Positions 791 through 64,000 of a stretch of 64,000 nt of DNA are shown piece by piece. Under the pieces are notes generated by a model that did not search any database, was not told where the DNA came from, and was given only the letters and a program-made list of their open reading frames with translations. Each line of letters starts with the position of its first letter. The stretch's first letter is position 1. Position numbers and translations under genes: made by a program. The stretch is from Desulfovibrio sp. (GTDB lineage Bacteria > Bacillota > Dethiobacteria > DTU022), in NCBI GenBank assembly GCA_020060545.1, contig JAGUZX010000131.1:856-64855 (forward strand), in the 5' to 3' direction.

Positions 791-1075
791 TCAGGGCAAG
801 CTTTTTTAGTGATAAGCAGAAAAGTGATGAAATAATAGCGAAAAATTATCTATTACGCCGCAGTAAAACGCTAACTATCTTGCCATATTGATCCTGCTGA
901 CAGTCATCGAGCATGCAGGCAGCGATCTGCTGATGCGCCCTCGCTCTGCGGCAGGTCCTGCGGACGGCGGAAGACCGGGGGCTGTTAAAGTGAAAAAAAG
1001 AGTTGCCAATGAAAGGATATTTTTGAACATTGTCGAAAATAAGCTTGTTACCATAAAAAAAGGAGAAGGATAAAA

Positions 1076-1549
1076 TTGGCCCTTACACTACTGTTATGGT
1101 TATTCCAAACCGTACCTGAAACCCTGGCCCTGGTTAGCCTGGCGGTAGTTCTGGCCGGCCGGAATTTGGAACTACAAAGCGTTTTATTAATTGGATTGCC
1201 GCATGCTGCAGCTGTTTACCTGGTCCGCCTGCTGCCCATTAAATTCGGTATTCATTTTATTGTTTTTATCGTAATCCTGGCGGTGTTGCTCAATGTGCGC
1301 TTGAAGATTAAATTCAGTCAATGCCTGTTGACGGCGCTGGCAGTACTGCTGTTTCTTGCCGTAGCCGAAACCCTTTGCATGTATGTCTTGTCCCTGGTAA
1401 CAGGCATTACGATAGAACAGGTAACCGCAGAAACTGCTTCGCACCTTATTTTCGCCTGGCCCCATATATTAATGCTGTTTCTCCTGGCCTTGGCGGTAAA
1501 CCGGTGGCGAAAAGGCCGCCTCAAGAATGAGGGAAACCATCGTGCTTAG
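1076..1549 (+). CDS. Small polytopic membrane protein (about 5 TM) co-oriented with agrB and overlapping it; family not recognised
   Basis: TTG start sits 6 nt after AAGGAGAAGG. The 157-aa product is strongly hydrophobic. Its 3' end overlaps the agrB start by 23 nt, which suggests co-translation. Confidence 0.6.
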   Translation: MALTLLLWLFQTVPETLALVSLAVVLAGRNLELQSVLLIGLPHAAAVYLVRLLPIKFGIHFIVFIVILAVLLNVRLKIKFSQCLLTALAVLLFLAVAETLCMYVLSLVTGITIEQVTAETASHLIFAWPHILMLFLLALAVNRWRKGRLKNEGNHRA

Positions 1550-2189
1550 GTACCTGGGACAGAGTACTGTTGAAAAAATAGGCGAGTGGGCCGGCCTGAC
1601 TCCGGAAGATCGGGAAGTGGCAGCCTACGGGCTGGAGTATTTGATCTCCAGTATTGCCGGCCTGGCGCTGATGCTGTTGATCGGGTTTGCCCTGAGCCTT
1701 TTGCTGGAAACCCTGGCGGTTCTGTCCTGCTGGGTGCTGCTGCGCGTGTTTGCCGGGGGCGCCCACTGCACAGCGCTGTGGCGCTGCACAGTAGTAAACT
1801 GTGCGGGTATACTGGCGGCTCTTTTTATAACCAGGGGAGTTGTTTTTCTTCTTCCGCCGGTCTTCTGGGTCGCCGCCGCCTCGGCCTGGGCCCTGCTGGC
1901 TGCGGGGCTCTGGGCGCCCAATAACAGCGAAAGGCCGGTTTACGATCCCCGGAGGCGCAAGGTCCTGCGCCGGAGGGCCCTGGTCTTGATCGTGGTGACC
2001 GGTTCTCTCCTTCTTTACTCGGTTATCCGGGGCGCGGAACAGGGGCAGCTCCTGGCGGCAGCCGGCGCAACGGGGCTGGCCTCGGGCGGTTTTATGATCT
2101 CTCCGGCCGGTTTCCGGCTGATCAACCGGCTTAATCACAGCCTGGAGTTTCTCGGCAACTCAATCAGGAAAGGAGGTGAAACACCGTGA
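1527..2189 (+). CDS. agrB: Accessory gene regulator B (AgrB) family peptidase/cyclase
   Basis: 220-aa polytopic protein. It carries the AgrB catalytic His/Cys region LRVFAGGAHCTALWRCTVV (compare S. aureus RRHAHGAHAPSSFWCY). An AgrD-like ORF follows directly. Confidence 0.85.
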   Translation: MRETIVLRYLGQSTVEKIGEWAGLTPEDREVAAYGLEYLISSIAGLALMLLIGFALSLLLETLAVLSCWVLLRVFAGGAHCTALWRCTVVNCAGILAALFITRGVVFLLPPVFWVAAASAWALLAAGLWAPNNSERPVYDPRRRKVLRRRALVLIVVTGSLLLYSVIRGAEQGQLLAAAGATGLASGGFMISPAGFRLINRLNHSLEFLGNSIRKGGETP

Positions 2190-2317
2190 AAAAACTGCTG
2201 ATCCGGTTGGCGGCGGCGATCGCCTTCCTGCTGACCATGGCAGCCACCGCCGGCGCAGCCTCCGCATCTAATTGGTTCACCTATGAACCAAAAGTTCCGG
2301 CGAAGCTGCGCAAGTAA
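2186..2317 (+). CDS. agrD: AgrD-like cyclic autoinducer prepeptide (43 aa), absent from the ORF track
   Basis: The GTG start overlaps the agrB stop (GTGA). AGGAGGTGA lies 7 nt upstream. Translation: MKKLLIRLAAAIAFLLTMAATAGAASASNWFTYEPKVPAKLRK*. It has an amphipathic N-leader and a charged tail (YEPKVPAKL). The conserved Pro lies exactly 10 residues after Ser28, the same spacing as Cys-to-Pro in S. aureus AgrD (CDFIMDEVEVP). Confidence 0.75.
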   Translation: MKKLLIRLAAAIAFLLTMAATAGAASASNWFTYEPKVPAKLRK

Positions 2318-2345: not shown

Positions 2346-4439
2346 ATGAATGATTGGCGTAAAGAAAGAGAAGACAACCTGGCAGAGCTTAATCTGGGCG
2401 CACACATCCTGGCTTACCTGGTAGTAATCATCATTTTAATAACCGGCACTTCCATTGATGGGTACGATTTTAGTACTTCGGCCATTTTGCTTATTGGCAC
2501 TGTTCTGCCTGCAGCCGGTTTTATTCTCCTCGATTATCGTTTTTCGCACGGAGAATACGGCTCCCGTTTTCTGTTGGGTTGGAACATTGCCAAACACACT
2601 TTACTGTTCGCGGTAATTACAATCGTTCTTGCAGGCTTCCGGGGGGAGCAGTTATGGCTTTTTGCCTCCATGTACCTGCTGCCGGTTGTACTTTCCTGCA
2701 TCACCCTGGGACAAAAGTGGGGAACTGTTTTCGCCGGAGCAGCAGTGGGAGCCATTTTCTTATTGACCAGGGGTATGGATGTGGCCGGGAACCGGGCCGT
2801 GAGCGAGTTCGAAACGGCTCTGGTTCTCGGCGGTATTTTTTTTCTCCTGGCCTGGTTTCTGGGCGGTAACGTCAAAGTGGAAAAAGAGACCACGGAATAT
2901 CTTTATGCCATGGCTGAAGAAGAGCAGCGCCGCCACGACCTGATCGCACGGATGATGGACACCAGCCCGGCGGGGATCCTGGTTTTGGATCGGCACCGGG
3001 CTGTTGTCTATGCCAACGCCCGGCTTGAGCAAATTCTAGGCTTGAGGTGGCGTGAGCTTCAGGTAATGTTCAAACGGGAAATACCCGCTGATAGCGATAG
3101 TGCTGCCGGCTGCCTGGAAGAGGTGTTCCGGAAGGTTTTCGCGGCGGGCGAACCTGTTTACAATTACCCGGGGACAGTAGGATCCGGCACCGGGGGAAAT
3201 AGCGCTTACCTCTCCGTCAGCGGCGCCCCCATCTTTAATTCAGCCGGCCGCGTTGAACAGGTTGTGCTGACCGTGGACGATATTACAAACCAGAAAAAAA
3301 TGGACGAAGAGATGCTTAAAACAGACAAACTGGAATCCATCGGACTCCTGGCCGGCGGCATCGCTCACGATTTCAACAATTTTATGGCGGTGATGCTGGC
3401 CAATATGTCCCTGATGAAAATAAAGAACAACGATCAAAAGATCGCCGAGAACCTGGAACAGATGGAGAAGGCGGTTTTGCGAGCCCGCGAGCTAACCCGG
3501 AAACTTTTCCTGTTTACCAAGGCCAGCGCTCCGGTCAGAGAGACGGTTTTCCTGCAGAATTTACTGCTCGAAACGGCCGGTTTCGCCTTAAGCGGGTCGG
3601 CTGCAGTTTGTGAAACCAGGATTGCGGACAACCTTTGGCCGGTCGAGGCCGATGAAGTGCAAATCGGCCAGGTGCTCAATAATATCCTGCTTAATGCCGT
3701 CCAGGCCATGCCCCGGGGGGGCAAAATTGAACTGACCGCGGCGAACATAACGGTTGGCGGAGCCGATCAAGAAAGCTCGTTTCCCCTGCCGGAAGGGGAG
3801 TATATCCGCATCACAATTGCCGATGAAGGAACCGGCATTCCACCTGATCAACTTGGCAAAATATTCGACCCCTTTTATTCCACCAAACCGGAGGGAAGCG
3901 GCCTCGGCCTGGCGGTAGCCTATACCATCATCCAAAATCACGGCGGCTTGATCCGGGTGGAGTCGGAGCCCGGCGCCGGAGCAACGTTCCACATTTACCT
4001 GCCCGCTTCATCAAAGCCTCGTTCGGAGTCCCCGGAAGAGAGTGATGCGCTTTATTTCGGGGAAGGCCGGATCCTCATTATGGACGACGAGGAGCTTATC
4101 CGCAACGCCTGCGGAAATATGTTGAAACACCTGGGTTACCGGGTATCGTATGCCCGCGATGGCTTGGAAGCGGTGCGCCTCTACCAGGAGGCCGCGGCAG
4201 CCGGTTCGCCTTTTGATCTGGTGATCATGGATTTAACCATTCCGGGCGGAATGGGCGGAAAAGAGGCGGTGGAACTGCTGCGCAAGCTGGATCCCGCGGT
4301 GAAAACGCTTGTATCCAGCGGCTACTCCAATTTGCCGGTTATCAACCGCTACACAGAATACGGTTTTTCCGGGTTTATCAATAAACCTTACCGGATCAAA
4401 GAGTTGAGCGCGGCCCTGAAAAAGATTTTCGCTAATTAG
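2346..4439 (+). CDS. Hybrid sensor histidine kinase: about 6 TM, PAS, HisKA, HATPase_c and a C-terminal receiver
   Basis: H-box LAGGIAHDFNNFM. G-boxes DEGTGIP and GSGLGLAV. Receiver segment ILIMDDEE...DLVIMDLTIPGGMGG...K. The N-terminus is hydrophobic. Confidence 0.85.
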   Translation: MNDWRKEREDNLAELNLGAHILAYLVVIIILITGTSIDGYDFSTSAILLIGTVLPAAGFILLDYRFSHGEYGSRFLLGWNIAKHTLLFAVITIVLAGFRGEQLWLFASMYLLPVVLSCITLGQKWGTVFAGAAVGAIFLLTRGMDVAGNRAVSEFETALVLGGIFFLLAWFLGGNVKVEKETTEYLYAMAEEEQRRHDLIARMMDTSPAGILVLDRHRAVVYANARLEQILGLRWRELQVMFKREIPADSDSAAGCLEEVFRKVFAAGEPVYNYPGTVGSGTGGNSAYLSVSGAPIFNSAGRVEQVVLTVDDITNQKKMDEEMLKTDKLESIGLLAGGIAHDFNNFMAVMLANMSLMKIKNNDQKIAENLEQMEKAVLRARELTRKLFLFTKASAPVRETVFLQNLLLETAGFALSGSAAVCETRIADNLWPVEADEVQIGQVLNNILLNAVQAMPRGGKIELTAANITVGGADQESSFPLPEGEYIRITIADEGTGIPPDQLGKIFDPFYSTKPEGSGLGLAVAYTIIQNHGGLIRVESEPGAGATFHIYLPASSKPRSESPEESDALYFGEGRILIMDDEELIRNACGNMLKHLGYRVSYARDGLEAVRLYQEAAAAGSPFDLVIMDLTIPGGMGGKEAVELLRKLDPAVKTLVSSGYSNLPVINRYTEYGFSGFINKPYRIKELSAALKKIFAN

Positions 4440-26599: not shown

Positions 26600-27224
26600 T
26601 TGCGCCGGGCGGGAGAAGCAACCGGCAGCGTTGCGGTCATGGCGGTCGCGACGCTCCAGCGCCGCGATTCCATCCGGCGGATAACCTTTTCGGCAGGAGA
26701 GATTTACTCGGGGCCGGCCCATCTAACGGCCTCCTTTGAACGCGAAATTATCCCAGGTTCCGTCTTTCCCCGGTTATTTCCAGGTTTAACATCACTATTC
26801 CTGCTTGCCCCTAGTCTTAAATTTTGGGTTGTCCCTCCGGCTGCTTGAGATGGCGGGAAAAGTGCTAGTTTATAACGAACGGTGCTTTTGGCGAAACATT
26901 TCCGGTCCCGGATTACAAGAGGAGAAGAGTTTTTGAAGCCTGGCCCGGGAAAACAAGAGAATGTTACCCCAACGCCCTCCCCCTGGCATTTAATCCGGCC
27001 TGCCGCCCCCCGGCGCACCCGTACCGTGAAAAAACGGGTTTTTGCTTCTTTTGAAGGAATATTCAAACCGGCGGCGAAAAGATAACCAATACCAGCCTGA
27101 TATATGGCACCGGAATGCGGGGGATTAACCCGGTTCCCAGACCTCTTCAAAACGCAACAGTAATGATTGGCAGTAGACTTTGAGCGGCGATTGGATTACT
27201 GTTAGTGGGGAAGGAGGGGGGATA

Positions 27225-28691
27225 TTGAACCTGAAGGCGCTGGTTAAAGAGAACGCCACCCTCAAGTCTGTATTAAACCATGCCGATGTGGCCGTGCATA
27301 TAGTGGACACGGACGGCATCACCCGGTTTTACAGCAAAGTAGCCGCGGAGATGGACGGCATGGAACCGGAAGAAGTGGTGGGCAAGCATATCCTGGAAGT
27401 TTATCCTTCGCTTACCATCGAATCCAGCTCGCTGCTGAAAGTCCTGGAAACGAAGAAAGCCGTTCTTAACCACCAGCAAACCGTGATCAACCATAAAGGC
27501 CGCGCTGTGACGATGTCGTATTCGACCTATCCCCTGTTTTACAATAACGAGATTGTCGGAGCCTGTGACATTTCACGCGATATCACCAGGATTAAAGAAC
27601 TTTCGGAGCGGCTGCTTGATTTGCAGGCGGAGCTGCTGGGGAAAAGAAACAGCGCCGCGCGCAAAGGCGCCGCCATCCAGGACAGCGTTCCTGTTGCCGG
27701 CGCCCGCTATACATTCAATGACCTGATCGGCCGTGATCAGAAGATGATTGATTTGAAAGTCCTCGGGCAGCGCGTGGCCCGGAGCGGTTCGCCGATTTTA
27801 GTTTACGGGGAAACCGGCACTGGCAAAGAGCTGCTGGTGCAGGCCATCCACAATGCCGGCCCGAACCGGCAAGGGCCGTTCATCGCCCAAAACTGCGCCG
27901 CCCTGCCGGCGACCCTTCTGGAAAGCATCCTTTTCGGCACGGTAAGAGGCAGTTTTACCGGTGCGGAGGACCGGCAGGGCCTCTTTGAAATGGCCGACGG
28001 GGGGATGCTTCTTTTTGACGAGATTAACTCCATGCCGGTCGAACTGCAGGGCAAACTGCTGCGCGTCTTGCAGGAAGGCGCTTTTCGCCGGGTTGGCGAT
28101 CACAGGCTCCGTAAAGTAAACGTCCGGGTGGTGGCCTCCACCAACGTCGACCCGCTGGCGGCGGTGAAGCAGCAGCTGCTGCGCCTGGACCTTTTCTACC
28201 GGCTGAATGTGATCTCGCTGCGGGTGCCGCCCCTGCGCGAACGCCCCGGCGATATCATGGTGCTGGCGGAACATTTTATTGACGAGTATAACCGGCTGTT
28301 CGGCATGCAAGTGCGCGGCTTCAGCGAAAAGGTGAAATATTTGTTTGAAAACCACTGCTGGCCGGGTAATGTGCGGGAGCTTAGAAACTGTATCGAGCAT
28401 GCCATGAATATTGTAGACGGGCCTGTGATTGAGGAAAGGTTCCTGCCGGCCCATGTCACCCAGGCCCAGGGGGGGGGATCCAGGCCCGCGGCAACCGCAG
28501 TGAGCCTGAGCAAGGGGCTCCCCGGGGCGATCAAGCAGCTGGAGAAAGAGGTGATTATGGAAACGCTGGAACAGTGTTCCTGGAACATTTCCCGGGCGGC
28601 CCGCCGCCTGAAGGTGCCGCGGCAAACCCTGCAATATAAACTGAGGATTTTAGGGGTTGCCGGCGGGGCGCTCAGGGAAGCGCCGCTGTAG
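27225..28691 (+). CDS. Sigma-54-dependent transcriptional activator (PAS sensor, AAA+ domain, Fis-type HTH)
   Basis: Walker A GETGTGKE, sigma-54 contact loop GSFTGA, Walker B LLFDEI, R-finger region, and C-terminal HTH NISRAARRLKVPRQTLQYKL. A TTG at 27225 follows GGAGGGGGG; the track start is 27180. Confidence 0.9.
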   Translation: MNLKALVKENATLKSVLNHADVAVHIVDTDGITRFYSKVAAEMDGMEPEEVVGKHILEVYPSLTIESSSLLKVLETKKAVLNHQQTVINHKGRAVTMSYSTYPLFYNNEIVGACDISRDITRIKELSERLLDLQAELLGKRNSAARKGAAIQDSVPVAGARYTFNDLIGRDQKMIDLKVLGQRVARSGSPILVYGETGTGKELLVQAIHNAGPNRQGPFIAQNCAALPATLLESILFGTVRGSFTGAEDRQGLFEMADGGMLLFDEINSMPVELQGKLLRVLQEGAFRRVGDHRLRKVNVRVVASTNVDPLAAVKQQLLRLDLFYRLNVISLRVPPLRERPGDIMVLAEHFIDEYNRLFGMQVRGFSEKVKYLFENHCWPGNVRELRNCIEHAMNIVDGPVIEERFLPAHVTQAQGGGSRPAATAVSLSKGLPGAIKQLEKEVIMETLEQCSWNISRAARRLKVPRQTLQYKLRILGVAGGALREAPL

Positions 28692-28967: not shown

Positions 28968-30536
28968 GTGGAACCCGGTTTTCTTTCGATTTTACCGGCG
29001 CTGGTCGCGATCGTGCTGGCCATCGCCACCCGCCAGGTGATCCTTTCACTGTTCATCGCGGTCTGGCTCGGGGCGACATTTATCTACTCCTTCAACCCCG
29101 CGGTCGGGATTATGCGCACCCTGGATGAGTTTATCGTGGGCAGCGCGACGGACGGCTGGAACGCCGGTATTCTCATCTTTACCATGATCATCGCGGCCGC
29201 GATCGGGCTGGTCACCAGGTCCGGCGGGGCCCAGGCCATCGCCGAGGCGCTGAGCCGCAAGGCGAAGACCCCCCGGGCGGGGATGCTTTCCGCCTGGCTG
29301 ATGGGTTTAATCATCTTCTTCGACGATTACGGCAGCTGCCTGATCGCCGGCAACACTTCCCGGCCGATTACCGACAAGCTGAAGGTCTCCCGGGAGAAGC
29401 TCTCTTATATCGTCGACTCGACCGCAGCGCCGGTCGCGACCATCGCGGTTATTTCGACCTGGGTCGGGTACGAGATGGGCATGATCGCCGAAGGTTACGA
29501 CAAGATCGGTGTTGCCGTCAGCCCGTATATCGTCTTTCTGCAGACGATACCGTACCGCTTCTACAGCCTCTTCGCCCTGGCCATGGTCGTGATCCTTGCC
29601 ATTCTGATGCGTGATTTCGGGCCCATGTACCACGCCGAGGTCAGGGCGAGAACCACGGGCAAGCTGCTGCGGGACGGGGCGGTACCCCTTTCGGCCTCAG
29701 ACACAGCCGAACTGCAGGTCAAGGAAGGAACCCCTCTCCGCTGGATCAACTTTGTCCTGCCGCTCCTGGCGATCATCGTCAGCACCGTTATCGGCCTGTA
29801 TTATAACGGGGGAGGCGCGGAAGCCGGCGCCTTCCTGGATGCGATTGGAAATGCCGATGCCAGCGTGGTGCTGCTCTGGGCGTCCACGGCGGGCCTTGTG
29901 GTGGGGCTGATCCTGGTGCTGGCCCAGCGCATCCTGACCCTGAATGAGGCCATGGAGACGGTCATGAACGGGGCGAAGTCGGTGTTTACAGCGCTGGTGA
30001 TCCTGGTGCTGGCCTGGTCTCTCAGCGCCGTTTCCGGCGAGCTGGGAGCCGCCGAATACCTGGCTCCCATGGTCTCATCCGCCATCCCGATGTGGCTGGT
30101 GCCGTTTATGGTCTTTCTCGTGGCCTGCCTGGTTGCATTTGCCACCGGGACCTCCTGGGGCACGATGGGGATCCTGACCCCGATGGCGATTCCGATTGCT
30201 TACGCCTTCGGCGACGAGAGGATTCTGATCCCCACGGTGGCCGCGGTGCTGACCGGGGCGATCTTCGGGGACCACTGCTCGCCGATCTCCGACACGACGA
30301 TCCTCTCCTCCACCGGTGCCAGCTCCGACCATATCGACCACGTGCGCACCCAGCTACCCTATGCTATCGTTACCGCGGTGGTTGCGGGTATAATCGGTTT
30401 CATCCCGGCCGGTTTCGGGGTGCCCTGGTACGTTTCTTTTGTTATCGGTGTGGCGGCGCTGTATCTCATTGTCAAGTTCGTGGGCAAGAGCACGGAAGGC
30501 GTGTCGCTGCCGGTGGACAAAAAAGCAAAAGCATAA
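28968..30536 (+). CDS. NhaC-family Na+/H+ antiporter-type transporter (family also includes organic-ion and amino-acid antiporters)
   Basis: The GTG lies 9 nt after AAAGGAGG. MEPGFLSILPALVAIVLAIATRQV... 522 aa, about 12 TM helices. Confidence 0.8.
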   Translation: MEPGFLSILPALVAIVLAIATRQVILSLFIAVWLGATFIYSFNPAVGIMRTLDEFIVGSATDGWNAGILIFTMIIAAAIGLVTRSGGAQAIAEALSRKAKTPRAGMLSAWLMGLIIFFDDYGSCLIAGNTSRPITDKLKVSREKLSYIVDSTAAPVATIAVISTWVGYEMGMIAEGYDKIGVAVSPYIVFLQTIPYRFYSLFALAMVVILAILMRDFGPMYHAEVRARTTGKLLRDGAVPLSASDTAELQVKEGTPLRWINFVLPLLAIIVSTVIGLYYNGGGAEAGAFLDAIGNADASVVLLWASTAGLVVGLILVLAQRILTLNEAMETVMNGAKSVFTALVILVLAWSLSAVSGELGAAEYLAPMVSSAIPMWLVPFMVFLVACLVAFATGTSWGTMGILTPMAIPIAYAFGDERILIPTVAAVLTGAIFGDHCSPISDTTILSSTGASSDHIDHVRTQLPYAIVTAVVAGIIGFIPAGFGVPWYVSFVIGVAALYLIVKFVGKSTEGVSLPVDKKAKA

Positions 30537-35122: not shown

Positions 35123-36604
35123 ATGGAGAAGTTCAGCTTCAAGGGCCAGCCGCGCCTGCGGCTCTTGTCCGACGAGCAGATCGAGCTGATGCACGAAAAA
35201 GCGCTCTATATCCTCGAGAACACCGGGGTCAAGTTCGAATCCGAGGAAGCGCTGAAAATTTTGAAAGATCACGGCGCGCAGGTTGACTTTACGCAAAAGA
35301 TCGCCCGGATCAAGCCGGAAATGGTGATCGACGCCGTGCAAAAGGCGCCCTCCGCCTTACGGCTGTACAACCGGGACGGGGAGCCCGCCGCTGATTTAAG
35401 CGGCAACAACGTCCACTTTGATCCCGGTTCGGCCGCGATCAAGTTCATGGAATCGGACGGCGTGACCGTCCGCCAGTCCAGGGCGGAAGACCTGGCCCGG
35501 ATCTCCAAAGTAAACGACGCCCTGGACAATATCGCCCTCCAGTCCACGGCTGTCGTGGCCTACGACGTGCCCAAGCTAATCGGCGACAGCTACCGGCTTT
35601 ACATTTTACTGAAGCACTCTCCCAAGGCGATCATCACTGGCGCCTTCAGCGTGCACGGCGTCGCCCACATGAGGGAGATGCTGGCCGCCGTGGCGGGGGG
35701 GTACGAGCGGCTGAGGGAGAAACCGGTGGCCGTTTTTGACATCTGCCCCTCCCCGCCGCTAAAATGGACGCACATCAGCGCGCAGAATATTATCGACTGC
35801 GCCCGTTTCGGCCTGCCCCTGGAGACGGTCTCCATGCCGATGCCCGGCGCCGCATCGCCGGTGACCCTTTCCGGGTCGATCCTGATCCATACCGCGGAGA
35901 CGCTGAGCGGCATCGTTCTGGCCCAATGTGTCAGCCCGGGCGCCCCGGTGGTGTACGGCGGGGCGCCGGTTCATTTTGACATGCGCTTCGGCACCACCCC
36001 TTTAAGCGCGATCGAGGCGACGATGATCGCTGCGGCCTACGCCCAGATGGGTAAATTTTACGGGATGCCCACCCACACCTACGCGGGCTTGAGCGACGCC
36101 AAGGTGGTCGACGCCCAGGCCGGCCTGGAAACGGGGATGAGCGGCGTCGTGGCCCAGCTGGCCGGGATTAACGTGATCTCTGGCGCCGGGGCCCTGGATT
36201 TCGTGAGCTGCATCAGCTTGGAGAAGCTGGTTATCGACAACGAGATCTGCGGGATGGCGCTGCGTCTGCACCGGGAAATCGACTGCTCGGCGGAAGCGAT
36301 GGCGGTTGAACTGGTGCGCGACCTCGGGCCGGGCGGGGACTACCTCGGCACGGAGCACACTTTCCGGTGGTTCAAGAAGGAGCCGTATATCACCTCCCCG
36401 GTAATCGACCGCCGCGATCGCGGCGGCTGGGTGGAGCAGGGCAGCAAGGATGCCTTTGCCCGCGCCAGGGAGAGAGTCTGTGAAATTGAGGGCGGCCACA
36501 GCCCCGTCCCTCTGGACGGGGAGCGGGCCGCCGCGCTGGACCGGGCCGCCTCACGTGTCATGGACGAACTGGGCATCGCCGCCCTCCCCCTCGGCCCCCG
36601 CTAG
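35123..36604 (+). CDS. MttB-superfamily methyltransferase, second diverged paralog, non-pyrrolysine; substrate unknown
   Basis: Uninterrupted 493-aa ORF (..LLSDEQIELMHEKALYILENTGVKF.., ..GPGGDYLGTEHTFRWF..). GGGAGGG acts as RBS. Confidence 0.8.
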   Translation: MEKFSFKGQPRLRLLSDEQIELMHEKALYILENTGVKFESEEALKILKDHGAQVDFTQKIARIKPEMVIDAVQKAPSALRLYNRDGEPAADLSGNNVHFDPGSAAIKFMESDGVTVRQSRAEDLARISKVNDALDNIALQSTAVVAYDVPKLIGDSYRLYILLKHSPKAIITGAFSVHGVAHMREMLAAVAGGYERLREKPVAVFDICPSPPLKWTHISAQNIIDCARFGLPLETVSMPMPGAASPVTLSGSILIHTAETLSGIVLAQCVSPGAPVVYGGAPVHFDMRFGTTPLSAIEATMIAAAYAQMGKFYGMPTHTYAGLSDAKVVDAQAGLETGMSGVVAQLAGINVISGAGALDFVSCISLEKLVIDNEICGMALRLHREIDCSAEAMAVELVRDLGPGGDYLGTEHTFRWFKKEPYITSPVIDRRDRGGWVEQGSKDAFARARERVCEIEGGHSPVPLDGERAAALDRAASRVMDELGIAALPLGPR

Positions 36605-50824: not shown

Positions 50825-52378
50825 ATGGGTGGATCCATTCACTTGAGCCCCGTTTCCGGCCCGGTGGAAATTGACGGCGGCGGCATGACCATTGAAGAGG
50901 TGGTGCAGGTCGCCCGCCGCGCCAGGGAGGTAACGCTGTCGCCCTCTTCGATCGAGCGGATCGCCGCCTCCCGGGCCATGCTGGAAAAGCTGGTCCGGGA
51001 AGAAAGGGTTGTCTACGGCATCACCACCGGTTTCGGCCGGTTCAGCGACGTGGTCATCTCCAAAGAAGACGCCGCCCGGCTGCAGAAGAATCTGATCGCC
51101 AGCCACGCCGCGGCGGTCGGGGAGCCGCTGCCCGCAGAGGTTGTACGCGGGGCGCTTCTGCTGCGGGCGGTCGCCCTCGCCGGGGGGTATTCGGGTGTCC
51201 GGCCGCTGGTCGTCGAGCAGCTGGTGGCCCTCTTAAATAAGGGGGTCGTGCCGCTCGTACCCTGCCAGGGCTCCCTGGGGGCCAGCGGAGACCTGGCCCC
51301 GCTGGCCCACCTGGCGCTCGTGCTCACCGGCCAGGGGGAGGCGTTTTTCCGGGGGCGCCGGATAAGCGGGGCGGCCGTCCTGGCCGAGGCGGGGATGGAA
51401 CCGGTCACGCTGATGGAAAAAGAGGGGCTGGCGCTGATTAACGGCACCCAGATCATGACCTCGCTCGCCGCCCTGGCGGTCTTTGATGCGGGGAACATCG
51501 TCAAAGCGGCGCAGATTACCGCCGCGTTAACCCTGGAGGCACTCATGGCTGTGCCTGACGCATTCGATCCGCTGCTTGCACGGGTCCGCCCGCACCGGGG
51601 CCAGGCGCGCACGGCGCGGAACATCGTCCGCCTGGTCGAAGGAAGCGCCCTGATCGGCGCGGACCGCCGCAAAGTGCAGGATGCCTACAGTTTGCGCTGC
51701 ATCCCTCAGGTCCACGGGGCTACCGCCGACGCACTTGATTATGTGCGCGGCGTAATCGAGGTAGAGATTAACTCCGTCACCGACAACCCGCTCCTGTTTG
51801 TCGAAGAAGGGCGCGTCTTATCCGGAGGCAATTTCCACGGCCAGCCGGTAGCCCAGGCCATGGATTTCCTGGCTATCGCCGTCGCCGAGCTCGGCAGTAT
51901 CGCCGAGCGGCGCGTGGAAAGAGCGGTTAACCCGTCCCTCAGCGGATTGCCCCCTTTTTTGATCCATGAGGGAGGGCTCAATTCGGGTTTCATGATCGCC
52001 CAGTACACCGCCGCTTCCCTAGCCTCCGAAAACAAGGTCCTTTGCCACCCGGCCGGCGTCGACTCGATCCCCTCCTCGGCCAACCAGGAAGACCATGTCA
52101 GCATGGGCGCCACCGCCGCGCGCAAAGCGCGCCAGGTTGTGGAAAATGTAAGCCGGATTTTGGGGATCGAGTTGTTAACTGCGGCCCAGGCGGTCGATTT
52201 TCGGAACCCGCAAAAAATGGGCCGGGGCACGGCTCTGGCGCACAGGCTGCTGCGGGAAGAGGTCCCGTTCATCGCCCGGGATCAACCGCTCTATCCGCTG
52301 ATCAACCGGGCGGTGGAACTGGTCTCCGGCGGGCGGCTGGTAGAAGCGGTAGAAAAGGAAATTCCCCTTGAGCTGTAG
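50825..52378 (+). CDS. hutH: Histidine ammonia-lyase
   Basis: MIO-forming segment GSLGASGDLAPLAH. Family blocks include YGITTGFG, NGTQ and QEDHVSMG. Confidence 0.95.
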   Translation: MGGSIHLSPVSGPVEIDGGGMTIEEVVQVARRAREVTLSPSSIERIAASRAMLEKLVREERVVYGITTGFGRFSDVVISKEDAARLQKNLIASHAAAVGEPLPAEVVRGALLLRAVALAGGYSGVRPLVVEQLVALLNKGVVPLVPCQGSLGASGDLAPLAHLALVLTGQGEAFFRGRRISGAAVLAEAGMEPVTLMEKEGLALINGTQIMTSLAALAVFDAGNIVKAAQITAALTLEALMAVPDAFDPLLARVRPHRGQARTARNIVRLVEGSALIGADRRKVQDAYSLRCIPQVHGATADALDYVRGVIEVEINSVTDNPLLFVEEGRVLSGGNFHGQPVAQAMDFLAIAVAELGSIAERRVERAVNPSLSGLPPFLIHEGGLNSGFMIAQYTAASLASENKVLCHPAGVDSIPSSANQEDHVSMGATAARKARQVVENVSRILGIELLTAAQAVDFRNPQKMGRGTALAHRLLREEVPFIARDQPLYPLINRAVELVSGGRLVEAVEKEIPLEL

Positions 52379-52456
52379 AACTGTTCTTAGAGATTCGCCT
52401 TTTGCCGTCTAATGAAAGGGCAAGGGCAATGAAAAACCAAACCGGGGGGAAAAAAG

Positions 52457-52894
52457 GTGGAGCAGATCGGCAGAACGGCGATTATGTTCGCCCTCTCCCA
52501 GGGGACGATGGAAGAGCAGATCAGGCTGGAAGCGGCGGAAAACGGGTTTACCTTGCTTAAGGGGCGGGTCGGGTCGATGAGCAGTGAAAAAATATTTGCC
52601 GCCGTGGAAACGGCCGCGGCGCGGGAAAACCTGATCCGCAAAGAGCTCTACCGGGAAACCCACGCCCTCTATCACGCCGCCCTGGACGCATTTGCCGGTA
52701 TCTGCCGCGGCCAGGTGGGGCTGGGGAGCATGCTGCGCACCGTGGGTTTGATTTTCACCGTAGCCCGGGGGCCGCGCAGCGTTGAACAGCGCGAAGACGG
52801 CGACTGGATCGCCGTGGTCCTCTACGGGACGATCGGCGCCCCGGTGAAGGGGTTCGAGCATGAAACGATCGGCCTGGGGGTCAACCACCTCTAA
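52457..52894 (+). CDS. hutP: HutP, the histidine-responsive RNA-binding antiterminator
   Basis: Aligns along its whole length with B. subtilis HutP as I recall it: GRVGSMSSEKIFAAVETA, YRETHALYHAALDA, LGSMLRTVGL, GDWIAVVLYGTIGAPVKGFEHETIGLGVNHL. Confidence 0.9.
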   Translation: MEQIGRTAIMFALSQGTMEEQIRLEAAENGFTLLKGRVGSMSSEKIFAAVETAAARENLIRKELYRETHALYHAALDAFAGICRGQVGLGSMLRTVGLIFTVARGPRSVEQREDGDWIAVVLYGTIGAPVKGFEHETIGLGVNHL

Positions 52895-52982
52895 CTTGAA
52901 GCTCGAACCTTGGAAGCAGGAGGTAGAAAGCAGAAGGTTGGAGACAAACCGCCCGTCTTCCGGCCCCCAAGCGGCGAGATTT

Positions 52983-53053
52983 ATCGATCGGGAGAACGGT
53001 CCTCTTGATCGATAGCCAGGAAAACGTCCCCCTGTTCTAGCCTCTTGATCGAT
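52983..53053. repeat. Hairpin repeat family H (stem + GAGAACGGTCC/CCGTCCCC core), hutP-hutU spacer
   Basis: ATCGATCGGGAGAACGGTCCTCTTGATCGAT, then ...AACGTCCCCC...CCTCTTGATCGAT (partial second copy). Confidence 0.7.
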
Positions 53054-53067
53054 GGGAGGTGTTTCGC

Positions 53068-54720
53068 ATGGAAAGAGAGATCCGCGCGCCCCGCGGCACC
53101 GCCCTCAGCTGCAAGGGTTGGCCGCAGGAGGCGGCCCTGCGCATGCTGATGAACAACCTTGATCCCGACGTGGCTGAAAACCCGCAGGAGCTGATCGTCT
53201 ACGGCGGAAACGGCAAGGCGGCGCGCAACTGGGACTGTTTTGACGCCCTGGTGAAGACCTTGCGCCGCCTGGAGGGCGACGAAACCCTGCTGGTCCAGTC
53301 GGGAAAGCCGGTGGCCGTATTCAAGTCCCATCCCGACGCGCCCCGGGTGCTGATCGCCAACTCGCTCCTGGTGCCCCGCTGGGCGGACTGGGAGCGCTTC
53401 CGCGCGCTAGAAAGGCTGGGGCTGACCATGTACGGCCAGATGACCGCCGGCAGCTGGATCTACATCGGCACCCAGGGCATCCTGCAGGGCACCTATGAAA
53501 CCTTCGGCGCAGTAGCCCGCCACCATTTCGGGGGCAGCCTGAAAGGGAAACTTGTGCTTACCGCCGGACTCGGCGGCATGGGCGGCGCCCAGCCGCTGGC
53601 GGTGACGATGAACGAGGGCGTGGTGATCGCGGTCGAAGTCGACCCGGCGCGCATCGAGCGGAGGCTCAAGACCGGCTACTGCGACCGCACGGCGCAAAAC
53701 TTGGACGGCGCCCTCGCCATGGCCCGTGAAGCCGCCTGCCGGGGCATACCCCTCTCCATCGCCTTGCCCGGGAACGCCGCCGCGGTGTTCCCGGAAATCG
53801 CCAGCCGGGGGGTAATCCCCGACGTGGTGACCGACCAGACATCGGCCCATGATACATTAAACGGCTATATCCCCGACGGGATCGAGTACGAGGCGGCGCT
53901 GCGCTTGAGAAAGGACGACCCCGCGGAGTACCAGCGCCGCGCGGCGGCATCGATCGCCAGGCATGTCCGGGCCATGGCCGAGATGCAAAAGCAGGGCGCC
54001 GTCGTCTTCGACTACGGCAACAATATCCGCCAAGCCGCCCTGGATGAAGGGTATGCCGACGCTTTCGCTTTTCCCGGGTTTGTGCCCGCCTATATCCGGC
54101 CCCTCTTTTGCGAGGGGAAAGGGCCCTTCCGCTGGGTGGCGCTTTCCGGCGACCCCGCCGATATCGCCCGCACAGATCGGGTAATTCTGGAGCAGTTTTC
54201 GCACGACCCGCACCTGGTCCGCTGGATCAAGACGGTCGGGGAGAAGGTCCGCTTCCAGGGCCTGCCGGCCCGGATTTGCTGGCTCGGTTACGGCGAGCGG
54301 GCCCGTTTCGGGGCGATTATCAACGACCTGGTGGCCGCGGGTGAAATCAAGGCCCCGATCGTGATCGGGCGGGATCATCTGGACTGCGGCTCGGTGGCAT
54401 CGCCCAACCGCGAAACCGAGGCCATGGCCGACGGCAGCGACGCGATCGCCGACTGGCCGATCTTGAACGCCCTGGTCAACACCGCCGGCGGGGCCACCTG
54501 GGTCTCCGTGCACCACGGGGGAGGGGTGGGGATCGGTTATTCCCTGCACGCCGGGATGGTGGTCGTGGCCGACGGAACCCCTGAGGCGGCCCGGAGGCTG
54601 CAGCGGGTCCTGACCACGGATCCGGGTCTCGGGATCGCCCGCCACGCCGACGCCGGTTACGAGGCGGCCCGTCAAAGCGCCCGTGAAAACCGGCTCGATA
54701 TCCCGATGCTGGACAGGTAA
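53068..54720 (+). CDS. hutU: Urocanate hydratase
   Basis: The ATG lies 6 nt after GGGAGGTG. Conserved blocks: [75 protein letters not shown]. Confidence 0.95.
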
Positions 54721-63660: not shown

Positions 63661-63818
63661 ATGGGCCGGAGCCAAGCTGCCCAACACAAGGCATGATAAA
63701 AAAGGATATCCGGGGCGTCTTGTAGAAAGTTCATCCAGGTTAGCGCGGTGCAGCCGGCGCCGCTGTGTTCGGCGGAATTAAAGGGGCGGCGCATAAAATC
63801 GGATCCGGGAGTGATTCT

Positions 63819-64000
63819 ATGTACGCGGTGATTCTGGCGGGAGGCAGCGGCACCCGCCTCTGGCCGCTCAGCCGGGAGCATTTTGCCAAGCAGTACCTGG
63901 CCCTGGGCGACTCCGCTTTGAGCCTTTTTCAGGAAACGGTGGCCAGGGTGCTGCCCGCCGTTCCCGAGGAGCGGGTGCTGGTGGTAACCCACCGTGACCA
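63819..64000 (+). CDS. manC: Mannose-1-phosphate guanylyltransferase, N-terminal part (3' end outside the window)
   Basis: MYAVILAGGSGTRLWPLSREHFAKQYL is the canonical nucleotidyltransferase N-terminus of ManC/CpsB. Confidence 0.8.
   Translation, partial: MYAVILAGGSGTRLWPLSREHFAKQYLALGDSALSLFQETVARVLPAVPEERVLVVTHRD

What the first reader, a model, noticed from the sequence alone, without database searches (positions are those of the whole stretch)
2186..2317. Unannotated 43-aa AgrD-type prepeptide; predicted serine-lactone ring S-N-W-F-T
A GTG overlapping the agrB stop (GTGA) has AGGAGGTGA 7 nt upstream. It opens MKKLLIRLAAAIAFLLTMAATAGAASASNWFTYEPKVPAKLRK*. The layout is AgrD-like: a hydrophobic/amphipathic leader, a short core and a charged tail. 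When the conserved tail proline is aligned to S. aureus AgrD (CDFIM-DEVEVP), Ser28 falls exactly where the ring-forming Cys sits (+10 to Pro). This predicts a 5-residue lactone ring SNWFT rather than a thiolactone. There is no Cys anywhere in the peptide. Ser-lactone AIPs are rare; the Staphylococcus intermedius group is the known example. None is described, to my knowledge, for this kind of high-GC anaerobic Firmicute.
Basis: partly seen in the sequence, partly recalled or inferred. Interest (0 to 1): 0.75.

Follow-up and report, generated by a model that had tools for sequence, protein, structure and literature searches.

The report
Serine-type AgrD quorum-sensing peptide gene
The 43-codon ORF is a real, conserved AgrD-type signalling-peptide gene whose ring-forming cysteine is replaced by serine; it is a new member of a known, already auto-annotated family, in an operon that lacks the usual AgrC/AgrA receptor pair.

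Summary
The ORF at 2186-2317 exists as described. It passes the AgrD model TIGR04223 (44.4 bits against a cutoff of 19) and directly follows an AgrB gene with an intact His/Cys pair. It recurs in the same place in every complete related cassette I read, and it evolves like a coding sequence (dN 0.17, dS 0.57).

In an alignment of 11 orthologues, Ser28 falls in the column where the more distant relatives have Cys (AASA-C-xxxx-YEPxVP against AASA-S-xxxx-[YH]EPxVP). The four residues after it are hypervariable, and the flanks are conserved. This supports a five-residue ring, c(SNWFT), closed through Ser28. A-S-A just before Ser28 looks like a signal-peptidase site, so the product is probably tail-less.

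The novelty claim is overstated. NCBI already names close relatives "cyclic lactone autoinducer peptide", including the Ser-type peptide of Ca. Contubernalis alkaliaceticus. Ser-lactone AIPs are also documented in E. faecalis and, as a tail-less pentapeptide, in C. thermocellum.

The context is the less ordinary part. The conserved cassette is a sigma-H-like promoter, an unknown ~155-aa membrane protein, agrB, agrD and a PilS-like 6TM sensor. That sensor is fused to a hybrid kinase here and to GGDEF/HD-GYP domains in relatives. No AgrC or AgrA is present. AgrB Glu135 tracks the Ser type in 13 loci.

The parts
1012..1040 (+). Sigma-H-like promoter of the cassette: -35 AAAGGATAT (1012-1020), an 11-nt spacer, -10 GTCGAAAAT (1032-1040), 36 nt before the first gene.
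   Evidence: It fits RNAGGAWWW / RNNGAATWW (consensus quoted in PMC8510167). A two-block motif in the same register lies upstream of the first cassette gene in 13 of 14 loci; L015 has a close variant by eye and an exact copy before its second TM~155 gene. The pattern AAGGA-N14-15-GTMGAA occurs 3 times in the window against 0.05 expected. Promoter function is inferred.
1076..1549 (+). Conserved 157-aa polytopic membrane protein of unknown function ('TM~155'), the first gene of the cassette. Its end overlaps the agrB start.
   Evidence: It is present directly upstream of agrB in every locus read, and duplicated in L012, L015 and L016. P14, E15, R51, G58 and E98 are invariant. It reaches no Pfam or NCBIfam threshold. 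Five of 15 members hit the N-terminal membrane region of AgrC weakly, best E 0.028. The single-sequence AF2 model was too poor to use.
1527..2189 (+). agrB, the membrane cysteine endopeptidase/cyclase that processes AgrD. The start may instead be GTG 1542, because the collection's version is 215 aa.
   Evidence: Pfam AgrB, E 5.8e-27. H80 and C87 are invariant in 49 homologues. The AF2 model has pLDDT 93.2 and 8 helices.
2171..2179 (+). Shine-Dalgarno sequence AGGAGGTGA for agrD. It also encodes the conserved AgrB C-terminus K-G-G-E.
   Evidence: Read directly. The same AAAGGAGGTGAAA lies upstream of agrD in the other loci.
2186..2266 (+). agrD leader, residues 1-27: MKK, a hydrophobic stretch, then A-S-A. 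It has the n-h-c layout of a signal peptide, with an AxA site ending at Ala27.
   Evidence: Sequence. A27 is invariant, and A24, A25 and S26 are nearly invariant, in 11 orthologues. Cleavage after Ala27 is inferred by analogy with C. thermocellum, where SignalP cut at A24|S25 and the tail-less product was found.
2267..2281 (+). agrD core S28-N-W-F-T32, the predicted five-residue ring. The Thr32 carboxyl would be esterified to the Ser28 side chain.
   Evidence: Column 28 is Ser in 6 orthologues and Cys in 5, plus a further Cys in L018. The next four columns are the most variable in the alignment: NWFT, IWIT, SYIF, WWIY, WWFS, NFIF, NFIL, TVMY, HVML, SWMY, SWLF. The register matches C. perfringens [CLWFT] and C. 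thermocellum S25-F29.
2282..2317 (+). agrD C-terminal recognition tail YEPKVPAKLRK plus the stop codon. AgrB would remove it.
   Evidence: E34, P35, P38 and L41 are invariant in 11 orthologues. This stretch is the part matched best by TIGR04223 (residues 8-43 on model positions 3-38).
2346..4439 (+). Candidate receptor: a 697-aa hybrid histidine kinase. Its N-terminal PilS-like 6TM domain (about residues 1-175, 2346-2870) is followed by PAS, HisKA, HATPase_c and REC.
   Evidence: Domains. A gene with this 6TM domain starts 23-40 nt after agrD in 11 loci. In L016 the junction is masked by an assembly gap. The output domain is swapped between HK-REC and GGDEF/HD-GYP. Nine of 11 members hit Pfam 6TM_PilS, best E 1.7e-7. 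The predicted outer loops are the most variable segments. The receptor role is inferred.

Best explanation
The ORF at 2186-2317 is a functional agrD gene, translationally coupled to agrB through the GTGA overlap. It sits in a four-gene operon: an unknown membrane protein, agrB, agrD and a sensor kinase. The operon is probably driven by a sigma-H-type (transition-phase) promoter.

Proposed mechanism:
1. The 43-aa precursor inserts in the membrane through its signal-peptide-like leader.
2. AgrB recognises the conserved tail YEPKVPAKLRK and cuts between Thr32 and Tyr33. This leaves Thr32 as a thioester on AgrB Cys87, with His80 as the catalytic partner.
3. The Ser28 hydroxyl attacks that thioester. 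The result is a 5-residue lactone ring, S-N-W-F-T.
4. After export, a type I signal peptidase probably cuts after Ala-Ser-Ala27 and releases a tail-less cyclic pentapeptide (linear mass minus 18 Da).
5. That product has a free amine next to the ester. It may rearrange by O-to-N acyl shift to the isobaric all-amide cyclopeptide, as tail-less thiolactone AIPs do.
6. The signal is most likely read by the PilS-like 6TM domain of the hybrid kinase encoded 28 nt downstream, not by an AgrC/AgrA pair.

What is shown here: family membership, conservation, coding signature, the equivalence of Ser28 to the ring Cys of orthologues, and the AgrB catalytic pair. What is inferred: every chemical step, the leader cleavage site, the receptor and the promoter.
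For: - TIGR04223 scores 44.4 bits against a cutoff of 19, and all 11 orthologues pass it.
- AgrB: Pfam E 5.8e-27. H80 and C87 are invariant in 49 homologues and align to S. aureus H77/C84.
- A small ORF with the same layout follows agrB in L001, L002, L004, L010-L015, L017 and L018.
- dN 0.17 against dS 0.57 in frame; dN exceeds dS in both shifted frames.
- The alignment shows a conserved A-x-[SG]-A, then a [S/C] column, then four hypervariable residues, then an invariant E-P-x-x-P. This is the classic AgrD pattern, and Ser28 is in the Cys column.
- Ser26 is not the nucleophile. It is conserved in Cys-type peptides too, and it is Gly in L017.
- Published AIPs have the same register: C. perfringens [CLWFT] (PMC12312760). 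In C. thermocellum the Ser25-Phe29 lactone, with Tyr30 and Pro35, was confirmed by LC-MS/MS as a tail-less pentapeptide (PMC5322536).
- Tail-less thiolactone AIPs rearrange to lactams (PMC8251862).
- NCBI names the relatives 'cyclic lactone autoinducer peptide'.
- Receptor: the 6TM domain is conserved next to agrD while its output domain is swapped.
Against: - Nothing here is experimental. No peptide product has been seen for any member of this clade.
- TIGR04223 covers both Cys and Ser types, so a hit does not show that cyclisation occurs.
- A Ser hydroxyl is a weaker nucleophile than a thiol, so the acyl-enzyme could simply be hydrolysed to a linear peptide.
- The ring size of 5 is taken from register with homologues, and a 6-residue ring exists in C. 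acetobutylicum.
- The leader cleavage site rests on an AxA motif only.
- No AgrC-type kinase or LytTR regulator is in the cassette. The assignment of the sensor therefore rests on gene adjacency and domain swapping.
- The unknown TM~155 protein, which has weak AgrC-like hits, could be the true binding partner.
- Two loci from one assembly (L009, L019) have broken versions of the cassette.
Confidence: 0.75

Rival explanations
1. It is a genuine AgrD and Ser28 forms the ring, but the molecule that accumulates and signals is not a lactone. After the leader is removed at Ala27|Ser28, the free Ser amine attacks the adjacent ester (O-to-N acyl shift). The product is the isobaric homodetic cyclopentapeptide cyclo(SNWFT).
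For: Tail-less thiolactone AIPs of Clostridia were shown to convert to lactams. The authors state that the fate of tail-less Ser-lactones such as that of H. thermocellum is open (PMC8251862). An A-S-A motif directly precedes Ser28 in all Ser-type orthologues, so a tail-less product is likely. O-to-N acyl migration at neutral or alkaline pH is standard peptide chemistry (my own knowledge). At least two Ser-type relatives come from alkaline soda-lake habitats.
Against: The C. thermocellum product was reported as a lactone, matched to a synthetic standard. The leader cleavage site is not established, and one extra N-terminal residue would block the shift. No data exist for this peptide.
Confidence: 0.3
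2. The peptide is processed by AgrB and/or signal peptidase but never cyclised. With Ser in place of Cys, the acyl-enzyme is hydrolysed and a linear peptide is the signal or a by-product. One variant: Sec export and signal-peptidase cleavage alone release linear SNWFTYEPKVPAKLRK.
For: The leader has a full signal-peptide layout: MKK, a hydrophobic core, then A-S-A. A Ser hydroxyl is a poor nucleophile compared with a thiol (general chemistry).
Against: Ser28 is strictly conserved in all six Ser-type lineages while the four residues after it vary freely. A dispensable residue would not behave this way. The AgrB-recognition tail is invariant. Ser-type AgrDs are cyclised in S. pseudintermedius, E. 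faecalis and C. thermocellum. AgrB keeps its catalytic pair. A residue change in AgrB (Glu135) accompanies every Ser-type peptide, which suggests adaptation of the enzyme rather than loss of function.
Confidence: 0.1
3. The ring is closed by a different residue or has a different size. Examples: Ser26 (a 7-residue ring SASNWFT), or cleavage after Tyr33 (a 6-residue ring SNWFTY).
For: Ser26 is also conserved. A 6-residue ring is reported for C. acetobutylicum and a 9-residue ring for GBAP.
Against: Ser26 is equally conserved in the Cys-type orthologues, where Cys is the nucleophile, and it is Gly in L017. It therefore belongs to the AxA site. The residue after the core is Tyr, His or Cys and starts the conserved block, as in C. 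thermocellum (cleavage before Y30) and C. perfringens.
Confidence: 0.05
4. The ORF is a chance open frame in the agrB-to-kinase spacer and is not expressed.
For: It is short and starts with GTG. Two large protein searches with the peptide returned nothing useful.
Against: The HMM hit is 25 bits above the cutoff. The ORF is conserved with a purifying-selection signature. The SD sequence and start position are conserved, and orthologues use ATG at the same place. The negative searches were false negatives, because exact look-ups show the orthologues are in the collection.
Confidence: 0.02

Closest known systems
Clostridium (Hungateiclostridium/Acetivibrio) thermocellum AgrD Clo1313_2818 and its tail-less Ser-lactone pentapeptide (Verbeke et al. 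2017, PMC5322536)
   Same: Ser is the ring nucleophile. The ring has five residues and is followed by Tyr, with Pro 10 residues after the Ser. A signal-peptidase-type cut directly before the Ser predicts a tail-less cyclic pentapeptide. The producer is an anaerobic member of the Bacillota.
   Different: The C. thermocellum gene is an orphan with no adjacent agrB, agrC or agrA. Here agrD is translationally coupled to agrB inside a conserved four-gene cassette. The C. thermocellum product was verified by LC-MS/MS, whereas this one is only predicted. I did not have the C. thermocellum sequence to align.
Clostridium perfringens AgrD / AIP [CLWFT]
   Same: The core is almost the same: C-L-W-F-T against S-N-W-F-T. 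The AIP is a tail-less five-residue ring, and agrBD has no adjacent agrCA.
   Different: It is a thiolactone (Cys), not Ser. It is thought to be sensed by VirS/VirR encoded elsewhere. The pairing with a 6TM-sensor gene is not described there.
Staphylococcus pseudintermedius/intermedius AIP RIPT[STGFF] and Enterococcus faecalis GBAP QN[SPNIFGQWM]
   Same: An AgrD-family precursor is cyclised by an AgrB-type enzyme through a Ser hydroxyl to give a lactone.
   Different: Both belong to canonical agrBDCA / fsrBDCA loci with an AgrC-type kinase and a LytTR regulator. Both keep an exocyclic N-terminal tail, and GBAP has a 9-residue ring.
Auto-annotated orthologues: WP_241421153.1 (Ca. Contubernalis alkaliaceticus, Dethiobacteria), MEW5785489.1 and MEW5922305.1 (Bacillota MAGs), NLX90441.1
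   Same: These have the same gene in the same cassette. AgrD identity is 44-74% and AgrB identity 45-66%. NCBI names them 'cyclic lactone autoinducer peptide'.
   Different: They are uncharacterised. The genome paper on Ca. C. alkaliaceticus does not mention quorum sensing. Some carry Cys and some Ser, and the core sequences differ in every lineage.
Canonical S. aureus agrBDCA system
   Same: AgrB has the His/Cys pair at the same 7-residue spacing. AgrD has leader, core and charged tail, with Pro at +10 from the ring residue.
   Different: There is no AgrC (HPK10-type kinase) and no AgrA (LytTR) here. Instead there is a PilS-like 6TM domain fused to PAS-HisKA-HATPase-REC, or to GGDEF/HD-GYP in relatives. 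An extra conserved membrane protein lies upstream of agrB.

Membership tests
AgrD family cyclic (thio)lactone autoinducer precursor (TIGR04223) | Scores above the curated cutoff of the family HMM | tested here: met
   44.4 bits against a cutoff of 19, E 1.2e-11, residues 8-43 on model positions 3-38 of 38. All 11 orthologues pass.
AgrD family cyclic (thio)lactone autoinducer precursor (TIGR04223) | Encoded next to agrB on the same strand | tested here: met
   The GTG start overlaps the agrB stop. The arrangement is the same in 11 other loci.
AgrD family cyclic (thio)lactone autoinducer precursor (TIGR04223) | Cys or Ser nucleophile at a fixed distance before the AgrB cleavage site and the conserved Pro, followed by a hypervariable core | tested here: met
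   Ser28 is in the column that holds Cys in L011, L012, L013, L015 and L017 and in L018. Pro38 is at +10. The four core columns are the most variable in the alignment.
AgrD family cyclic (thio)lactone autoinducer precursor (TIGR04223) | Hydrophobic or amphipathic N-terminal leader and charged C-terminal tail | tested here: met
   Read directly from the sequence. The tail residues E34, P35, P38 and L41 are invariant.
AgrD family cyclic (thio)lactone autoinducer precursor (TIGR04223) | The precursor is actually converted to a cyclic (thio)lactone peptide | not testable with these tools
   This needs agrBD expression and LC-MS/MS.
AgrB (PF04647) peptidase/cyclase | Pfam model hit and catalytic His/Cys pair | tested here: met
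   PF04647, E 5.8e-27. H80 and C87 are invariant in 49 homologues. No solved structure is available for comparison.
Canonical agrBDCA quorum-sensing locus | Adjacent AgrC-type (HPK10, HATPase_c_5) sensor kinase | tested here: not met
   The downstream kinase has PAS, HisKA, HATPase_c and REC domains. Its best NCBIfam matches are CckA-like hybrid kinases, not AgrC. No AgrC-type gene lies within about 4 kb in the 10 loci that carry precomputed Pfam labels.
Canonical agrBDCA quorum-sensing locus | Adjacent AgrA-type (REC plus LytTR) response regulator | tested here: not met
   None is in the cassette. The next genes are a TrkA-type K+ channel, an IclR regulator and an SSF transporter. None is in the flanks of the related loci. 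The rest of the window was only partly scanned.
PilS-like 6TM sensor domain (PF25323) | Pfam model hit at or above the gathering score | tested here: inconclusive
   The window protein scores 20.4 bits against a cutoff of 27 (E 4.6e-4). Nine of 11 orthologous domains hit the model, best E 1.7e-7. Six hydrophobic segments are present.

The most novel reading that the evidence does not exclude
This would be an undescribed branch of agr-type signalling in Dethiobacteria-related Bacillota, built as follows. A sigma-H-driven cassette encodes an unknown ~155-aa membrane protein, AgrB and AgrD. The cyclic peptide is read not by AgrC/AgrA but by a PilS-like 6TM receptor module. That module is fused to a hybrid kinase (as here) or directly to GGDEF/HD-GYP enzymes, so the peptide signal is wired straight into c-di-GMP turnover. 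Within this branch the ring nucleophile switched from Cys to Ser together with a Glu at AgrB position 135, a candidate general base for the weaker nucleophile. The switch possibly adapts the signal to alkaline habitats, where thioesters are short-lived.
Probability: 0.3. Interest if true: 0.6.

Novelty: new member of a known kind. Interest (0 to 1): 0.4.

Why it matters
As a gene call it is routine, because NCBI's pipeline would label it automatically. Its value lies elsewhere. It belongs to a compact clade in which orthologous AgrB/AgrD pairs differ in using Cys or Ser for ring closure. That is a natural experiment on how AgrB handles an oxygen nucleophile; Glu135 is a concrete candidate residue. 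It also bears on whether tail-less Ser-lactones persist or rearrange to lactams, a question the literature explicitly leaves open. The cassette also offers a candidate non-AgrC receptor for cyclic autoinducing peptides. In relatives, it offers a direct link from peptide quorum sensing to c-di-GMP. The hosts are poorly studied anaerobes, including syntrophic soda-lake bacteria, for which no cell-cell signal is known.

Tried and rejected
- Word-indexed search of 5.8 billion proteins with the peptide found only itself. Exhaustive phmmer against 1.84 billion representatives found only low-complexity matches in long proteins. Both were false negatives, because exact look-up later showed the orthologues are in the collection. 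Short, Ala-rich peptides evidently fall through these searches.
- The AgrB scan of genome contigs gave only 2 loci and the scan of metagenome contigs only 1. The AgrB profile search plus contig look-ups was what opened the clade.
- PDB sequence searches with AgrB, the TM~155 profile and the sensor 6TM profile gave nothing meaningful.
- hhalign of TM~155 against the sensor 6TM domain showed no relationship.
- The single-sequence AF2 model of TM~155 had pLDDT 63.8 and pTM 0.40, so I did not fold-search it.
- The AgrB model was good (pLDDT 93.2), but Foldseek against the PDB found no similar fold, best E 1.3. Coordinates are not returned, so I could not measure the distance from Glu135 to the catalytic pair.
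- Rfam found no known RNA element, including no c-di-GMP riboswitch, in the window or in 12 related loci.
- The generic sigma-70 promoter and terminator scan around the cassette was uninformative.
- I considered that TM~155 might be an intramembrane protease for leader removal, analogous in role to MroQ. His60 and His130 are not invariant across 15 members, so I do not put this forward.
- The Wuster and Babu 2008 survey of agr across Firmicutes is not held in the library. Literature searches for agrBD coupled to GGDEF returned only generic reviews.
- The taxonomy of the window's organism could not be pinned down. The nearest named relative of its AgrB is Ca. Contubernalis, class Dethiobacteria.
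Full report

Yes. The + strand carries GTG at 2186-2188 inside GTGA, so it overlaps the stop of the upstream gene. The ORF runs to TAA at 2315-2317 and reads MKKLLIRLAAAIAFLLTMAATAGAASASNWFTYEPKVPAKLRK. There is no Cys. Ser28 is TCT at 2267-2269, and Pro38 lies ten residues after it.

The upstream gene (1527-2189) is AgrB (Pfam PF04647, E 5.8e-27).

**2. Is it a gene?**

The NCBIfam AgrD model TIGR04223 scores 44.4 bits against a curated cutoff of 19 (E 1.2e-11).
- The ORF is conserved. In every related complete cassette I could read, a 43-44-codon ORF starts at or just after the agrB stop, behind the same AAAGGAGGTGAAA. In most of them the start codon is ATG at the position of the window's GTG.
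- Against the closest relative (L001, AgrB 66% identical), the ORF has dN 0.17 and dS 0.57. The two shifted frames give dN greater than dS.
- All 11 orthologues pass TIGR04223.

**3. Which residue closes the ring?**

The alignment of 11 orthologues is the key result.

| Type | Locus | Core and tail, from the shared A-x-[SG]-A |
|---|---|---|
| Ser | window | AASA-S-NWFT-YEPKVPAKLRK |
| Ser | L001 | AASA-S-IWIT-YEPTVPAKLRK |
| Ser | L002 | AASA-S-SYIF-HEPQVPAKLRK |
| Ser | L004 | AASA-S-WWIY-YEPTIPAKLRR |
| Ser | L010 | AASA-S-WWFS-YEPEMPTKLKR |
| Ser | L014 | AASA-S-NFIF-CEPQVPFKLRK |
| Cys | L012 | AASA-C-NFIL-YEPQVPAQLRK |
| Cys | L011 | AASA-C-TVMY-YEPEVPAKLRGE |
| Cys | L013 | AVSA-C-HVML-YEPEVPDKLRVK |
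| Cys | L015 | AASA-C-SWMY-YEPEVPAKLRGE |
| Cys | L017 | VAGA-C-SWLF-YEPEVPAKLRQ |

L018 adds another Cys type, AASA-C-TYLL-YEPPVPAKLRK.

- Ser28 therefore occupies exactly the column of the ring cysteine of its own orthologues.
- The four residues after it are the most variable in the peptide. Both flanks are conserved: A27, E34, P35, P38 and L41 are invariant. This is the signature of an AIP core between two processing sites.
- Ser26 is not the nucleophile. It is just as conserved in the Cys-type peptides, and it is Gly in L017.
- The register agrees with published AIPs. C. perfringens has [CLWFT] (PMC12312760). C. thermocellum has a Ser25-Phe29 lactone followed by Tyr30, with the conserved Pro at +10; LC-MS/MS found it as a tail-less pentapeptide (PMC5322536).
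- The prediction c(SNWFT) closed through Ser28 is thus well supported by homology, though not by chemistry.

**4. The enzyme**

AgrB keeps His80 and Cys87. Both are invariant in 49 homologues. An AlphaFold model built on the 49-sequence alignment is confident (pLDDT 93.2, eight helices). It has no counterpart in the PDB.

**5. Likely maturation**

The leader has the n-h-c layout of a signal peptide and ends in A-S-A directly before Ser28. In C. thermocellum the same arrangement (cut at A24|S25) gives a tail-less product. So a tail-less cyclic pentapeptide is the most likely product here; this is inferred.

Tail-less thiolactone AIPs of Clostridia rearrange spontaneously to all-amide cyclopeptides. 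The authors note that the fate of tail-less Ser-lactones is unresolved (PMC8251862). The same uncertainty applies to this peptide, and I list it as the main rival for the identity of the final molecule.

**6. Context: not a canonical agr locus**

The cassette is conserved in complete form in 13 loci: the window, L001, L002 with L003 (one lineage), L004 and L010-L018. Two broken loci, L009 and L019, are described in section 9. Its parts are these.

- **(a) Promoter.** A two-block motif lies upstream of the first gene. In the window it is AAAGGATAT (1012-1020), an 11-nt spacer, then GTCGAAAAT (1032-1040). It fits the sigma-H consensus RNAGGAWWW / RNNGAATWW (PMC8510167). It is found in the same place in 13 of 14 loci; L015 has a close variant by eye and an exact copy before its second TM~155 gene. 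The pattern AAGGA-N14-15-GTMGAA occurs 3 times in the window against 0.05 expected.
- **(b) Unknown membrane protein.** This ~155-aa polytopic protein (1076-1549) reaches no family threshold. Its invariant residues are P14, E15, R51, G58 and E98. Five of 15 members show weak similarity to the membrane part of AgrC, best E 0.028.
- **(c) agrB.**
- **(d) agrD.**
- **(e) Sensor.** A gene starts 23-40 nt after agrD in the 11 loci where the junction can be read (in L016 it is masked by an assembly gap). Its first ~175 residues form a conserved six-helix membrane domain, 34-66% identical across loci. Nine of 11 members match Pfam 6TM_PilS, best E 1.7e-7.

The output attached to that sensor domain differs between loci. 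It is PAS-HisKA-HATPase-REC in the window, L001, L004 and L010. It is GGDEF plus HD-GYP in L002, L011-L013 and L015-L018, where the HD-GYP motif is intact in all and the GG[DE]EF motif in all but L012 and L018. In L014 the contig ends before the output domain.

A sensor module that stays beside agrD while its output domain is exchanged is the best candidate for the peptide receptor. Its predicted outer loops are also its most variable parts. This assignment is an inference. No AgrC-type kinase or LytTR regulator is in the cassette or its flanks.

**7. Direction of the Cys/Ser change**

In a rough neighbour-joining tree of AgrB, the outgroups are all Cys-type with GGDEF outputs. The Ser types fall in one sub-clade, in which one Cys-type locus (L012) is nested. 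The kinase-output loci form a single group inside that sub-clade. The window's state, Ser plus hybrid kinase, therefore looks derived.

AgrB position 135 (motif APNNS-E-RP) is Glu in all 6 Ser-type loci. It is Ala, Lys or Arg in all 7 Cys-type loci. A seventh case, P0031 with the Ser-type peptide P0059, is linked only by a shared contig length. L018 was a prospective test: I chose it for Ala135 and it proved to be Cys-type. The sample is small and phylogenetically structured, so this is a lead rather than a result.

**8. How novel is it?**

The family assignment is already routine. NCBI names the orthologues 'cyclic lactone autoinducer peptide' or 'AgrD family cyclic lactone autoinducer peptide'. 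This includes the Ser-type peptide of the complete genome of Ca. Contubernalis alkaliaceticus (WP_241421153.1) and that of L001 (MEW5785489.1). The window's own peptide is in the public protein collection.

Ser-lactone AIPs are also not confined to the S. intermedius group. GBAP, the C. thermocellum peptide and the predicted C. difficile agr2 peptide are documented.

What is not described, as far as the searchable literature shows, is any AIP from this lineage. The genome paper on Ca. C. alkaliaceticus does not mention quorum sensing. The cassette architecture with a PilS-like 6TM sensor and c-di-GMP outputs is likewise not described.

I therefore rate the finding itself as a new member of a known kind, and the cassette as a possible new variant.

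**9. Caveats**

- Everything about the chemistry, the cleavage sites, the receptor and the promoter is inferred.
- The two large peptide searches were false negatives. 'No hits' for such peptides should not be read as absence.
- The idea that the Ser type is an adaptation to alkaline habitats rests on two lineages of known origin: Ca. C. alkaliaceticus and a T1Sed10 soda-lake MAG. One Cys-type locus comes from a biogas fermenter. I could not test the idea further.
- Two loci from one assembly are broken versions of the cassette.
- The organism of the window is not identified. The closest named AgrB belongs to the Dethiobacteria.

Noticed in passing
window 1076-1549; L001 3544-4023; L003 736-1209; L004 134-607; L010-L019 directly upstream of agrB: A ~155-aa polytopic membrane protein with no family assignment is always the first gene of the cassette and overlaps the agrB start. 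It is duplicated in L012, L015 and L016. P14, E15, R51, G58 and E98 are invariant. Five of 15 members hit the membrane part of AgrC weakly (best E 0.028). Its function is unknown.
   Followed up: partly
window 2346-2870 (6TM domain of the 697-aa kinase); sensors in L001, L002, L004, L010-L018: The same PilS-like 6TM domain follows agrD in all loci, but its output is either PAS-HisKA-HATPase-REC or GGDEF plus HD-GYP. The HHExxDGxGYP motif is intact in all the GGDEF/HD-GYP sensors and GG[DE]EF in all but L012 and L018. This suggests a peptide receptor module wired to c-di-GMP in some lineages.
   Followed up: partly
window 1929-1931 (AgrB Glu135, motif APNNSERP): Glu135 of AgrB co-occurs with Ser-type AgrD in 6 of 6 loci. 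Ala, Lys or Arg co-occurs with Cys-type AgrD in 7 of 7 loci, including one locus (L018) chosen in advance as a test. R29, A181 and T182 also segregate. Glu135 may be an adaptation of the enzyme to an oxygen nucleophile.
   Followed up: partly
window 1012-1040, 52355-52380, 63702-63727: A sigma-H-like promoter motif (AAGGA-N14-15-GTMGAA) occurs three times in the window against 0.05 expected. The sites are before the agr cassette, between the hutH stop and hutP (52457-52894), and about 95 nt before an NTP_transferase gene starting at 63819. The cassette copy is conserved in 13 of 14 loci, with a close variant in L015.
   Followed up: partly
L014 4654-4785 and protein P0059: Two Ser-type AgrDs have a Cys immediately after the predicted ring (ASAS-NFIF-C-EPQVP and ASAS-SFIF-C-EPQVP), at the position that is Tyr or His elsewhere. 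Whether this Cys matters is unknown; it could offer an alternative 6-residue register or an intermediate state of the Cys/Ser switch.
   Followed up: no
L004 1401-1931 and 1974-3530: In this Logan assembly the sensor is split into a 176-aa 6TM protein and a 518-aa PAS-kinase-REC protein. The same 176-aa product occurs in five samples, so this is a real split or frameshift rather than a single-read error. The gene caller also missed agrD (1244-1375) here.
   Followed up: no
L009 (905 bases) and L019 3032-4400, both from assembly GCA_036681025.1: These are degenerate cassettes. L009 joins the end of a TM~155 gene directly to a frameshifted 6TM sensor, without agrBD. L019 has TM~155 and agrB (Glu135 type) but no agrD or sensor; a xanthine/uracil permease gene follows instead.
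   Followed up: no
window 1-22000: Base composition is uneven. The cassette is about 53-54% G+C, 6-11 kb is 43-46%, and beyond 16 kb it is about 60-64%. This could mean a mosaic or acquired region, or a chimeric contig. The 'high-GC' label applies only to the latter part of the window.
   Followed up: no
L002 (record title 'Candidatus Dojkabacteria bacterium isolate T1Sed10_24'): A complete Bacillota-type agr cassette sits on a 7.4-kb contig binned into a candidate-phyla-radiation MAG. L003 carries the same sequence. This is most likely a binning error rather than agr in Dojkabacteria.
   Followed up: no
Both large protein searches with the 43-aa peptide missed orthologues that are present in the collection, including one 74% identical. 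Negative results for short, Ala-rich peptides in these tools are unreliable.
   Followed up: yes
window 50825-54720: A histidine-utilisation cluster is present: hutH (aromatic amino acid lyase family), hutP (PF09021) and hutU (urocanase). Elsewhere in the window are a sigma-54 activator (27180-28691), a Na+/H+ antiporter (28968-30536) and an MTTB-family methyltransferase (35123-36604).
   Followed up: partly
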